Positions 61,001 to 64,000 of a stretch of 64,000 nt of DNA are shown here, piece by piece. Made by a program: the position numbers. Location of the stretch: NCBI RefSeq assembly GCF_054482525.1, contig NZ_CM137006.1; one strand, 5' to 3'. The stretch's first letter is position 1, and each line of letters begins with the position of its first letter.

Positions 61001-64000
61001 TTAGGTGCAGTTATGATAAAACATTCGCACTCACTATTTGGTTGGCTAGGAATGCCTTGGGCTCTTTGCTCTGAAGCTAAAAAATATCGAAATCAAAAGA
61101 AAGATATTGTGCATAATAATGAACCACCTATTTATGCATATAATGACGCCTTTGAAGCAGAACGAGTAAAAAAACATCTTTCTTATAGATTAGGACAGAC
61201 ATTACTTAAAAATATTAAGTCTCCATTAGGTTGGATTAAACTCCCATTTGCACTAGCACAAAATGTACGAGAGTTTCGATTAGAACGAGGTGAGTAATAT
61301 ACGATGAAATCAATATCTATGATTTCCCAACCGGAGGAAACATGGCTGGATTGTTTAAGTTCGATATATCCACCGACAGGCGTCATGGTCATTGGTGCTG
61401 GAAATGGAAGCAGTATTTGGGTCCAATGGCTTTACAAAAAATGTGTGAATCCTGTCATTTTGGTTGAAGGGAATCAGAAGCAGTTTCAGTTGTTAAAACA
61501 TAATATTCCTTTAAATAAAGAATGGGTTTTCTTGAATAAGATTGTAATATTCGGGAGTGAGCCACATATTTTTCATTATGTAGATAACTCACGAGAAAAC
61601 GGGTTGTTATCTCCAGAGCAATTACATTCACTATGGCCAAATATAAAGTGTATAGGTGAAGAGGCAATACATAATGGTATCACACTTAATAGCCTACAAA
61701 AAAGTGAAAACTTACCCTTGAATTGGCTATTTATTGATTGCCTACCCGCACCAGAAATTCTTGAGCATGCGGGGGATATGTTACATCGAATAGAGGTTGT
61801 AGTAAGTAGGGTAGTCATACAAGATGAACCATTTTCAGCTAGCCTAAAAAATTTAGACAAAGTTTTGAATGAAGTAGGCATGCGGCGGGTCCATTTATTT
61901 CAAGAACGTCATCCTTCTATAGGCTATGCTATTTATACTAGAAATGTAGCATTAAAAATAACTGAGGCAGAAAGTCTAAAAGAAGAAATTAAACAACAGC
62001 AGCGGAAGATAAGTATATTACAGTCTAGCTTGGAACAGCAATCTGTTGAGTATGAATTAAAAATTCATGATATTGAAAAAAAACACAAGTTAGAATTTGA
62101 AAAAATCCTGGATAAAAAAAATCATATTAAGAATGAATTATTAAAACTAAAAAATAAATTGGAGCTATCTGTTATTAATCTGAATGAGTTCCATGCTGTT
62201 AATGAAAACATTTTATCTAAATATGAAATTCATACAGATAATGTATGCACGATGATGAAAAAGATAGAGGAACAGCAAAAGGAAATATATACTCAAATTA
62301 ATAAAAATTTACCCGTTTTAATAAAAAAAGAATTAGATGCAAAACTTAACAAATCTGTTCGTCATGTAGAGGCCTTCATATCCATTCAACAATACTTGAC
62401 TCATGGTGACTGTATAACAGGATTTCATGGTTGGCCAATAAGCCCGGATATGGGGGTATTTCTCTTAGAAAAAATACGTGAGCGAAATTATGATGCTATC
62501 ATTGAGTTTGGAAGTGGAGTTTCAACTTTATTGATAGCTAAAGGTCTTATGGCATTTAATCTTTTCAAAGATAATGAAGATAAATGCTTCATTAGTTTCG
62601 ATCATGATGAGTATTATTTTACTAATACACAAAGTCTGCTTGCTTATCATGGTGTCGAATCAATGGTGGATCTATATTTAACTCCGCTAAAAGAATGGTC
62701 CGATTGTACAGGATGCTATAAATATTACTCTTGTGAAGATGTATTAATTGAGTTAGCAAAGCGTATACAAGATGGTTCTAAGAGATTATTAGTCCTTGTA
62801 GATGGACCGCCTGGTAATACATGCGCTAATGCACGTTATCCTGCACTTCCATTTATGTCTCACTTTATATCTAATCACGAAATTGATTGGGTCTTGGATG
62901 ATGCTTATCGAGATGAAGAAAAGTTAACGGCTGAGTTATGGAAAAAATATTGGTCAGCGGAGAATATACAGTTCACTCATGATTTTATAAAAAATGAAAA
63001 AGGGATGTTTTTTGCGACTACTTATGGAAGAAAATCTACTTCGTAATATTATTGAGTATCATTCAAATTATAAAGGAGAATATAAGAAGTGAGTTTAAAA
63101 TTAGGAAATGCTTACTTTAGAGATGGACAATACAAACTTGCCATACAAGAGTATAAAAAAATATCAAAAGATAGCCCTTTGTACCCATACGCTATATTAA
63201 ATATTGAAAGAATTGAAAGTTTAGGATTCGATTGCAAAGAACAAGAATCTGAAATTAATGATGCCCCTCTGTTATCAATTATAATGCCAGTATTTAATGT
63301 TGGGCCTTATCTTGACGCTAGTATACTATCAGTTCTATCCCAAACCTTAGTTGATTTTGAGTTAATTATTATCAATGATGCTTCAACAGATGATGGAAAA
63401 CGTATCATTGAAATGTATGAAAATATTGATTCAAGAATAAAATTTATTGATCTACGTTTCAACACTCTTGGTGGCGCAGGTATACCTAGTAACATTGGCA
63501 TCAATGCAGCTAAAGGTAAATATATCGGTTTTGTTGATAGCGATGACTGGGTGTCGAAAGATGCTTTCGAAAAATTAGTTACTACGGCAGAAAAATTTAA
63601 TGCTGAATTGGTCATTGGAGACTTTAATACTTTTGATCAGGAAACCAGACTTGTTAGCCCAGCTTATGATAAGGAAAGGTGGAAAGGCATACCTGTCGAA
63701 ACTATAATATCTGGAGTAACCACACCACAACTATTTAGGTTATCCCCAGTCCCCTGGCGAAAATTATATCTTACGAAATTTATTAAGAGTAATGGTATAG
63801 AGTACCCTGAAGGAGATTATTTTTATGAGGATAATCCTTTGCATTGGTTTGTGTTATCTAGTGCAGAACGTGTTGTAATGGTTGATCATATCATTAGTTA
63901 CCATCGTATGGCCCGCGAAGGGCAAACAATGAGTTCAGCTCTATATAAATTAGCGGCCCTTGCATCACATCTTAATACAATTTCTAATTTTCTCTTAAAA

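What the first reader, a model, noticed from the sequence alone, without database searches (positions are those of the whole stretch)
63089..64000. First region 2 glycosyltransferase has a TPR-like N-terminal extension
Before the GT-A core (IIMPVFN ... DSDD) there are about 60 residues with a TPR-like signature (GNAYFRDGQYKLAIQEYKK). TPR domains fused to capsule polymerases occur in other ABC-transporter-dependent capsule systems and mediate protein-protein contacts, so this may be the polymerase rather than a single-addition transferase.
Basis: partly seen in the sequence, partly recalled or inferred. Interest (0 to 1): 0.4.

Follow-up and report, generated by a model that had tools for sequence, protein, structure and literature searches.

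The report
Two-domain K53 capsule glycosyltransferase, TPR cap
The gene cut off by the window end is the 664-residue, two-domain glycosyltransferase of the E. coli K53/K93 capsule locus. It is probably the enzyme that polymerises the galactofuranose-glucuronic acid capsule, and its short N-terminal tetratricopeptide-like cap is real and also found in the known chondroitin capsule polymerase family.

Summary
An ORF starts at GTG 63089, behind a Shine-Dalgarno site. Its first ~44 residues form one TPR-like helix pair plus a capping helix, followed by a flexible linker and a GT2 (GT-A) domain.

The window is an E. coli group 2 kps locus, and region 2 matches the catalogued K53/K93 cluster. The window matches the K53-type genomes best.

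The full-length protein, read from identical genomes, has 664 aa and two GT2 domains. Both have intact DXD motifs.

The family has more than 800 relatives. In all eight relatives of at least 49% identity whose loci I read, glf lies in the locus; in seven it lies directly downstream.

The only other transferase in region 2 is 97% identical to KfoG of the K4 locus, so it is not serotype-specific.

The N-terminal unit matches consensus TPR (hhalign 95.8%). It also matches the N-terminus of the K4CP chondroitin polymerase family (97.3%, E 1.8e-11). That segment is missing from the K4CP crystal construct.

Best reading: a bifunctional Galf/GlcA capsule polymerase with a single-TPR docking cap. It is a new member of a known kind, already catalogued but not characterised biochemically. 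Interest is moderate.

The parts
63073..63078 (+). Shine-Dalgarno AAGGAG, 10 nt upstream of the GTG start
   Evidence: Read from the sequence.
63089..63220 (+). Residues 1-44: one TPR-like helix-turn-helix plus a capping helix
   Evidence: Pfam TPR models match 35 of 47 family members. hhalign to consensus TPR gives 95.8%. AF2 predicts helices 3-11, 15-22 and 32-44. hhalign to the K4CP-family N-terminus gives 97.3%, E 1.8e-11.
63221..63268 (+). Residues 45-60: variable, low-confidence linker
   Evidence: Block pLDDT is 55-74. Mean identity to the E. coli sequence is 13% across the family, with many length differences.
63269..64000 (+). Residues 61-304: first GT2 (GT-A) module, cut by the window end. 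It holds D97/S99/D101, the DXD motif D150-S-D152-D153, and E247-D248.
59546..61297 (+). First region 2 gene: 583-aa KfiB-like coiled-coil protein (K53_K93_13)
   Evidence: It is listed as K53_K93_13 and as a KfiB protein in two published catalogues. Homologues beside the dual GT2 in other genera carry PF28160 DUF8374.
61304..63046 (+). Second region 2 gene: 580-aa protein with coiled coils and a C-terminal methyltransferase-like fold (K53_K93_12). Function unknown.
   Evidence: Weak Methyltransf_24 hit. InterPro lines in the PMC13171606 supplement. The Cupriavidus counterpart carries PF05050.
57846..58622 (+). kpsM (region 3), preceded by the ops element GGCGGTAG at 57806-57813
58619..59311 (+). 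kpsT (region 3)

Best explanation
The ORF is the 5' part of the serotype-specific capsule polymerase of the E. coli K53 (and K93) group 2 capsule.

The 664-aa protein has three kinds of element: an N-terminal single TPR-like unit, a flexible linker, and two tandem GT2 (GT-A) modules of the TarP/CgT structural type.

Inferred mechanism:
- One module transfers galactofuranose from UDP-Galf, which is made by the Glf encoded directly downstream.
- The other module transfers glucuronic acid from UDP-GlcA, which is made by the Ugd of the locus.
- The two reactions alternate and build the Galf-GlcA backbone on the poly-Kdo glycolipid. A separate acetyltransferase then O-acetylates it.
- My tentative assignment is module 1 = Galf transferase and module 2 = GlcA transferase.
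- The N-terminal TPR-like cap is not catalytic. I infer that it docks the enzyme to a partner in the membrane-associated Kps assembly complex, or mediates self-association.

Shown here: the architecture, the intact motifs, the linkage to glf, and the similarity to K4CP.
Inferred: donor specificities, polymerase activity, and the role of the cap.
For: Locus identity.
- The window ends in kpsM, kpsT and region 2.
- Identical DNA occurs in 39 of 5426 complete E. coli genomes. There are two variants, which differ only in the acyltransferase gene.
- Gene lengths and order match K53_K93_7 to _13 of PMC13171606. K53_9 is 222 aa, as in L001, the genome that matches the window. The 664-aa protein differs at 2 residues between variants, which equals the published 99.699%.
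- The window has 1 mismatch in 6215 nt against the K53-type locus, and 8 in 4458 against the other type.

Architecture.
- Two PF00535 domains, E 1.8e-63.
- AF2 mean pLDDT 91.4.
- Foldseek's best matches are the K4CP chains, with about 600 aligned columns covering both domains, E 4.5e-23.
- The nucleotide-binding Asp residues, the DXD motif and the candidate catalytic-base Asp are intact in both modules of the E. coli protein.

Galf link.
- glf lies in the locus in 8 of 8 family members of at least 49% identity, and directly downstream in 7. These come from Cupriavidus, Psychrobacter, Burkholderia, Paraburkholderia, Methylobacillus, Phocoenobacter, Corticibacter and Microlunatus.
- Among loci holding only generic GT2 relatives, 9 of 76 contain glf.
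- The A. pleuropneumoniae serovar 16 locus is syntenic, and its Cps16C is 49% identical to this protein (PMC5328458).

Elimination.
- The only other transferase in region 2 is 97% identical to KfoG of the K4 locus. The dual-GT2 protein at the equivalent position in that locus matches the PDB chain deposited as chondroitin polymerase K4CP.

Cap.
- It is conserved in 92 of 120 homologues and absent from the actinobacterial members.
- It is similar to the K4CP-family N-terminus.
Against: - No biochemical data on this protein or any homologue turned up in the searched literature.
- KfoG-like resembles the GlcA-transferase domain of heparosan synthase PmHS2 (E 6e-32) and is 32% identical to KfiC. 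It could therefore be the chain-elongating GlcA transferase instead of module 2.
- Sequence does not tell which module uses which donor. Both modules resemble the K4CP GlcA-transferase domain more than its GalNAc-transferase domain.
- The overall TM-score to K4CP is only about 0.3, so the two modules are arranged differently.
- The K53/K93 repeat structure (Bax et al. 1988) is recalled from memory. Only the citation was confirmed here.
- The role of the TPR cap is pure inference. I could not inspect the model's coordinates.
Confidence: 0.6

Rival explanations
1. Two-protein polymerase, as in E. coli K5 (KfiA plus KfiC). The 664-aa protein supplies only the Galf transferase activity, through module 1. 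The KfoG-like GT2 supplies the elongating GlcA transferase. Module 2 is structural, regulatory, or acts only in priming.
For: - The GT2 domain of KfoG-like is closest to the GlcA-transferase domain of PmHS2.
- It is 32% identical to KfiC.
- It always sits next to ugd.
- Module 2 is less conserved than module 1: 31 against 85 columns at 90% or more.
- Module 2 has lost its catalytic Asp residues in a subfamily.
Against: - KfoG-like is 97% identical to K4 KfoG. In K4 the acceptor for GlcA would be GalNAc, not Galf.
- Reviews describe KfoG only as of unknown function or as a 'helper'.
- Module 2 motifs are fully intact in the E. coli protein and in 55 of 68 aligned homologues.
- The Burkholderia, Paraburkholderia and Methylobacillus loci have the dual GT2, glf and ugd, but no KfoG-like gene in the stretches I read.
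Confidence: 0.27
2. Non-polymerising transferase. The protein adds only a defined primer or adaptor (one or two sugars) to the Kdo linker. An unrecognised enzyme elongates the chain, for example the KfiB-like protein or the 580-aa protein.
For: Two region 2 proteins have no assigned function. Transition transferases do exist in other group 2 capsule systems (PMC11666461).
Against: - Neither unknown protein has a recognisable glycosyltransferase fold or motif.
- KfiB was tested as a transition transferase and was inactive (PMC11666461).
- The repeat needs two glycosidic linkages, and this protein has two catalytic modules.
Confidence: 0.06
3. The N-terminal TPR likeness is a chance resemblance or an annotation artefact. 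The real start would be Met66, as in the 599-aa database representative.
For: The single-sequence Pfam scores are below the gathering thresholds. The nr cluster representative P0001 starts at Met66.
Against: - The motif is conserved from residue 1 in homologues down to about 40% identity.
- A Met66 start would remove strand beta-1 of the GT-A fold.
- The profile matches to consensus TPR and to the K4CP N-terminus are significant.
- The AF2 model is confident for the three helices.
Confidence: 0.02

Closest known systems
K4CP (KfoC), the chondroitin polymerase of E. coli K4, and its Pasteurella relatives
   Same: - A single polypeptide of about 670-690 aa with two GT2 GT-A domains, encoded in region 2 of a kps locus behind a KfiB-like gene.
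- It is the best whole-chain PDB match.
- The K4 locus carries the same kfoF-kfoG module.
- The N-terminal ~45 residues are profile-similar: 97.3%, E 1.8e-11.
   Different: - Only 15-17% identity over the Foldseek alignment. BLAST identity is 28-30% per domain.
- TM-score of about 0.3, so the relative orientation of the domains differs.
- K4CP has a helical region of about 100 residues between the cap and domain 1, which is absent here.
- Different sugars: GalNAc and GlcA there, Galf and GlcA here (predicted).
- K4CP activity is proven. This protein's activity is not.
Cps16C of Actinobacillus pleuropneumoniae serovar 16
   Same: An orthologue: 49% identity and 678 aa. It sits in a syntenic locus with Glf, an acetyltransferase 57% identical to the K93-type enzyme, Ugd, a DcbB/KfoG-like GT and a HyaE/KfiB-like protein (PMC5328458).
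   Different: It was annotated there as a rhamnosyltransferase, by transfer from an 'RfbG' database name. No function was tested and no capsule structure was given.
TPR-containing TagF-like capsule polymerases (Cps3D, Cps7D, Bcs3)
   Same: They are capsule polymerases of ABC-transporter-dependent systems that carry TPR elements needed to elongate from the linker (PMC11666461).
   Different: Their TPR domains have 14-20 helices, and their catalytic domains are TagF-like GT-B folds that make phosphodiester polymers. Here there is one TPR motif, only GT-A domains, and a purely glycosidic polymer.
TarP, TarS, RmlT and CgT (single-module GT2 enzymes)
   Different: They are single-addition decorating enzymes with one catalytic module and different oligomerisation domains.

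Membership tests
GT2 glycosyltransferases (GT-A fold, inverting) | Match to PF00535 above the gathering score | tested here: met
   106.5 bits for the window part and 213.9 bits with two stretches for the full length, against a cut-off of 23.3.
GT2 glycosyltransferases (GT-A fold, inverting) | DXD metal/nucleotide motif and a GT-A fold | tested here: met
GT2 glycosyltransferases (GT-A fold, inverting) | Inverting transfer that gives beta linkages | not testable with these tools
   This needs product analysis.
Bifunctional GT2-GT2 capsule polymerases (K4CP / Pasteurella synthase class) | Two catalytically competent GT-A domains in one chain | tested here: met
   All seven diagnostic Asp positions of module 2, and the module 1 motifs, are intact in the E. 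coli protein.
Bifunctional GT2-GT2 capsule polymerases (K4CP / Pasteurella synthase class) | Encoded in the serotype-specific region of an ABC-transporter (kps) capsule locus, alongside the donor-synthesis genes | tested here: met
   The gene lies between kpsMT and kpsS, next to glf and ugd. The same holds in Cupriavidus, Phocoenobacter and Corticibacter.
Bifunctional GT2-GT2 capsule polymerases (K4CP / Pasteurella synthase class) | Alternating transfer of two sugars that gives a long polymer in vitro | not testable with these tools
Bifunctional GT2-GT2 capsule polymerases (K4CP / Pasteurella synthase class) | Close sequence or structural relationship to K4CP | tested here: inconclusive
   K4CP is the best whole-chain hit, but TM-score is about 0.3 and identity 15-17%. 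The N-terminal units are profile-similar.
TPR repeat proteins (Pfam TPR clan) | Score above Pfam's gathering threshold | tested here: not met
   The best score is TPR_11 at 22.8 bits, against a cut-off of 26.8.
TPR repeat proteins (Pfam TPR clan) | 34-residue helix-turn-helix with the consensus small and large residues | tested here: met
   hhalign gives 95.8% to consensus TPR. 35 of 47 homologues hit TPR_11. AF2 predicts the helices.
TPR repeat proteins (Pfam TPR clan) | An array of three or more tandem repeats that forms a superhelical groove | tested here: not met
   There is only one repeat plus one capping helix before the linker.
TagF-like TPR capsule polymerases | A TagF-like GT-B phosphotransferase domain | tested here: not met
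   No such Pfam, NCBIfam or structural match was found. Only GT-A domains are present.
Galactofuranosyltransferases | Genomic coupling to UDP-galactopyranose mutase | tested here: met
   8 of 8 family loci contain glf, against 9 of 76 control loci. The E. coli and A. pleuropneumoniae serovar 16 loci also have it.
Galactofuranosyltransferases | Homology to a characterised Galf transferase, or demonstrated use of UDP-Galf | tested here: inconclusive

The most novel reading that the evidence does not exclude
The single N-terminal TPR unit is an ancient docking module shared by two otherwise distant families of GT2-GT2 capsule polymerases: the K4CP/Pasteurella glycosaminoglycan synthases and this Galf-linked family. 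It would couple the polymerase to the priming machinery of Kps systems. A candidate partner is the conserved KfoG-type GT2, acting as a GlcA 'transition transferase' on the poly-Kdo linker. If so, this would explain how glycosidic group 2 capsules that contain GlcA are started. That step is solved so far only for teichoic-acid-like capsules.
Probability: 0.2. Interest if true: 0.65.

Novelty: new member of a known kind. Interest (0 to 1): 0.4.

Why it matters
K53 and K93 are catalogued capsule types of extraintestinal pathogenic E. coli; both turn up in the bloodstream-infection and carriage typing tables of PMC13171598, for example K93 in ST69 and K53 in ST457. K93 cross-reacts with the meningococcus group A capsule (PMC2188001).

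I found no assigned or tested enzyme for their Galf-GlcA backbone. A soluble one-protein polymerase would allow cell-free synthesis of a Galf-containing antigen. Galf is absent from mammals (PMC5328458).

The family is widespread in Proteobacteria and Actinobacteria, and it is nearly always found with glf.

The TPR-like cap is shared with K4CP, and the K4CP crystal construct lacks it. This points to a non-catalytic element of glycosaminoglycan-type capsule polymerases that I did not find described. It gives a concrete handle on how such polymerases join the Kps assembly complex.

Tried and rejected
- Single-sequence AlphaFold2 gave an unusable model (pLDDT 35). It was replaced by a run with a 68-sequence alignment.
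- The genome-contig scan was swamped by a generic GT2 peptide pattern and returned only two or three true family members. I used the other loci as a background set for glf co-occurrence.
- The search for homologous proteins with KfoC returned only near-identical E. coli copies. The representative-library search supplied the diversity I needed.
- I tried to recover the K53/K93 repeat structure from held papers and failed. Only the Bax et al. 1988 citation was confirmed.
- I tried to assign donors to the two modules by similarity to K4CP domains, KfoG, NCBIfam equivalogs and GlfT2. This was not discriminating.
- An idea that the best NCBIfam hit for module 2 (PRK10073) is the GlcA transferase WaaH rests on memory only. 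I did not test it and did not use it.
- A Met66 start is rejected.
- Membership of the TagF-like TPR polymerase family is rejected.
- The extra GGCGGTAG copies in the window all lie inside long ORFs. I treat them as chance.
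Full report
**1. What is at the coordinates**

Translation of 63089-64000 in frame 1 gives an open frame that runs off the window. It reads VSLKLGNAYFRDGQYKLAIQEYKKISKDSPLYPYAILNIERIESLGF..., then LLSIIMPVFN and FVDSDDWV. AAGGAG lies at 63073-63078, 10 nt before the GTG. Pfam places Glycos_transf_2 at residues 63-195 (E 1.8e-30). Several TPR models match residues 3-37 below their thresholds.

**2. Where the window lies**

Upstream are gspL- and gspM-like ORFs. An ops element (GGCGGTAG) sits at 57806, 33 nt before kpsM (57846-58622), which is followed by kpsT (58619-59311). Two long ORFs without assigned function come next, at 59546-61297 and 61304-63046.

The last 2 kb of the window are at least 99% identical in 39 of 5426 complete E. 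coli genomes, always on the chromosome.

In strain 2452 (locus L001) the region continues as follows: the 664-aa GT2 protein (WP_000053811.1), glf, a hexapeptide acyltransferase, a UDP-glucose dehydrogenase, a 446-aa GT2 protein, then kpsS-C-U-D-E-F and tRNA-Phe. This is a group 2 kps locus.

**3. Which capsule type**

Region 2 occurs in two variants: 27 genomes with full coverage and 12 genomes at 92% coverage. They differ only in the acyltransferase gene.

The supplement of PMC13171606 lists, for the serological reference strains K53 and K93:
- shared genes K53_K93_7 (446 aa), _8 (ugd), _10 (glf), _11 (664 aa), _12 (580 aa) and _13 (583 aa);
- type-specific acyltransferases K53_9 (222 aa) and K93_9 (227 aa), which are 64% identical;
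- K53_K93_11 at 99.699% identity between the two types.

L001 has a 222-aa acyltransferase. Its 664-aa protein differs from the other variant at exactly 2 residues, I56V and D426Y. The window has 1 mismatch in 6215 nt against L001 and 8 in 4458 against the other variant. So the window carries the K53-type lineage of this gene. The acyltransferase itself lies beyond the window.

The second catalogue (PMC13171598) also holds KL53 and KL93. It lists a GT2 gene group of up to 1995 bp, and glf, in three loci.

As I recall from Bax et al. 1988, both polymers are ->3)-beta-D-Galf-(1->4)-beta-D-GlcA-(1-> and differ in the O-acetylation of Galf. Only the citation was confirmed here. The gene content of glf, ugd, one acetyltransferase and GT2 enzymes fits this.

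**4. The full-length protein**

It has 664 aa and two PF00535 domains, at 63-~200 and 380-545 (E 1.8e-63).

AlphaFold2 with a 68-sequence alignment gives mean pLDDT 91.4 and pTM 0.85. The predicted layout is:
- helices 3-11, 15-22 and 32-44;
- a poorly defined linker at 45-60;
- GT-A module 1 (62-~284) with a helical extension to 372;
- GT-A module 2 (379-~598) with C-terminal helices to 661.

The two halves are 25% identical to each other (E 5e-16), so this is an old tandem duplication.

In the family alignment, module 1 motifs are invariant in 68 of 68 sequences: D97, S99, D101, D150-x-D152-D153, E247-D248 and H272-R273. Module 2 motifs (D413, D414, D418, D464-x-D466-D467, D560) are intact in the E. 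coli protein and in 55 of 68 sequences. They are degenerate in one divergent subfamily.

**5. The N-terminal unit**

It is conserved from residue 1 across the family. The consensus is MS-x-K-x-GN-xx-F-xx-G-x-Y-xx-AI-x-EY-x-KI-xxx-SPLY-xx-AQFNI, and A18 and N38 are invariant in 47 aligned N-termini.
- 35 of 47 N-termini hit Pfam TPR_11 (best E 4.5e-6), and 31 hit TPR_2. The best-represented families in that scan are nearly all TPR models.
- The profile aligns to the last repeat plus solvating helix of a consensus TPR protein with 95.8% probability (E 7.9e-9).
- A motif search finds the unit in 92 of 120 homologues. The exceptions are truncated annotations and members with other N-termini, notably actinobacterial ones such as Lolliginicoccus, Microlunatus and Microbacterium.

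So it is a genuine TPR-type unit, but a single one. It fails Pfam's thresholds and the multi-repeat criterion. It is dispensable for the fold of the catalytic modules.

**6. An unexpected link to K4CP**

The ugd plus 446-aa GT2 pair is 94% identical in DNA to a pair in about 70 other genomes. One of these loci (L002) is the K4 chondroitin locus. Its 686-aa GT2 protein matches PDB 2Z86 (K4CP) at 1449 bits over residues 58-682. The 446-aa protein is therefore KfoG, at 97% aa identity.

K4CP's own N-terminus, MSILNQAINLYKNKNYRQALSLFEKVAEIYDVSWVEANIKLCQ, gives a weak TPR_2 hit at residues 5-30. Diverse K4CP relatives from the representative library carry the same motif.

A profile-profile comparison of the two N-terminal alignments gives 97.3% probability, E 1.8e-11, and is co-linear over 45 columns from residue 1. 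The crystallised K4CP starts at residue 58, so this unit has never been seen in a structure. As I recall, that truncated K4CP still polymerises. If so, the cap has a non-catalytic role.

The eight K4CP-family N-termini were hand-picked from hits whose alignments reached the N-terminus. This is a possible bias.

**7. Function from context**

I read the loci of eight family members of at least 49% identity: Cupriavidus gilardii, Psychrobacter alimentarius, Burkholderia diffusa, Paraburkholderia, Methylobacillus, Phocoenobacter uteri, Corticibacter populi and Microlunatus.
- All eight have glf in the locus, and seven have it directly downstream of the GT gene.
- By comparison, 9 of 76 loci that hold only generic GT2 relatives have glf.
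- ugd at 64% identity or more occurs in 6 of the 8.
- A full-length KfoG-like gene occurs in the three loci that also show KpsC or KpsS.

[quoted passage not shown] It encodes a DcbB-like GT, a HyaE-like protein, Cps16C (49% identical to this protein), Glf, an acetyltransferase and Ugd (PMC5328458).

A subfamily with dead module 2 motifs lies in loci with three tandem dual-GT2 paralogues, GDP-sugar genes and no ugd in the stretches read; glf is present in two of the three. This, together with the invariance of module 1, is why I tentatively assign Galf transfer to module 1.

**8. Polymerase or not**

Region 2 has three GT-A modules for a disaccharide repeat. KfoG-like is shared almost unchanged with K4. 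The dual-GT2 protein at the equivalent position in K4 matches the PDB chain deposited as the chondroitin polymerase. Reviews describe KfoG only as of unknown function or as a helper. By elimination and by architecture, the 664-aa protein should carry the serotype-specific activities.

The main rival is a K5-like split, in which KfoG-like is the elongating GlcA transferase. Its GT2 domain is closest to the GlcA-transferase domain of PmHS2 (E 6e-32), and it is 32% identical to KfiC. I put 0.60 on the bifunctional polymerase and 0.27 on the split.

**9. Comparison with TPR-bearing polymerases**

In Cps3D and Cps7D the TPR domain has 14-20 helices. It is needed to elongate the poly(glycerol-phosphate) linker, and it contacts the galactosyltransferase domain (PMC11666461). 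Those enzymes are TagF-like. Nothing of that kind is present here. The analogy is functional at most.

**10. Verdict**

The gene is already catalogued (K53_K93_11, WP_000053811.1) but uncharacterised. I file it as a new member of the bifunctional GT2-GT2 capsule polymerase kind. It has two modest new points:
- tight coupling of the family to glf;
- a single-TPR cap shared with the K4CP family.

Noticed in passing
L001:25080-27718 (beyond the window end); L002:12008-14646: The ugd plus 446-aa GT2 pair next to kpsS is the kfoF-kfoG module of the K4 locus: 94% DNA identity, and KfoG is 97% identical at the aa level. KfoG's GT2 domain is closest to the GlcA-transferase domain of heparosan synthase PmHS2. 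In K5 the first sugar on the Kdo linker is GlcA (PMC7694667 abstract). KfoG may therefore be a GlcA 'transition transferase' common to GlcA-containing group 2 capsules.
   Followed up: partly
window 59546-61297 and 61304-63046: Two long region 2 proteins have no known function. One is KfiB-like and coiled-coil (DUF8374 in homologues). The other is a 580-aa protein with coiled coils and a methyltransferase-like C-terminal fold. Both also accompany the dual GT2 in Cupriavidus and Corticibacter. As I recall, no methyl group is known in K53/K93.
   Followed up: partly
window 63284 (Met66 codon): The nr cluster representative of this protein (P0001, 599 aa, standing for 639 sequences) starts at Met66. 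That start removes the TPR unit and strand beta-1 of the GT-A fold, so it is probably a widespread start-codon misannotation.
   Followed up: yes
window 57806-57813: The ops element GGCGGTAG lies 33 nt upstream of the kpsM ATG (57846), in the place expected for RfaH-dependent read-through from region 3 into region 2. Four other copies (16658, 23733, 32447, 49330) lie inside long ORFs. The total of 5 copies compares with 1.3 expected by chance.
   Followed up: partly
L088:1981-9116, L089:183-7302, L090:1201-5222: A divergent subfamily has lost the catalytic Asp residues of module 2. It occurs in metagenomic loci with two or three tandem dual-GT2 paralogues plus GDP-sugar genes, and no ugd in the stretches read; glf is present in two of the three loci. 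This suggests modular one-active-site use of the same scaffold.
   Followed up: partly
L002:5681-5820 (K4CP residues 1-46): The proven chondroitin polymerase K4CP and its relatives carry the same single TPR-like N-terminal unit. The solved structure 2Z86 starts at residue 58, so the unit is absent from the structure.
   Followed up: yes
L001:11113-15602: In strain 2452 an IS1-flanked insert lies directly upstream of kpsM. It encodes a fatty acyl-AMP ligase, an NAD-dependent epimerase/dehydratase and an acyl carrier protein. In the window the gsp (yghD-type) genes occupy that position instead.
   Followed up: no
L009:10001-13339; also P0030, P0082, P0089, P0094: Some family members have 1100-1160 aa and a third GT2 domain (three PF00535 stretches in the Corticibacter protein). 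These are triple-module versions of the enzyme.
   Followed up: no
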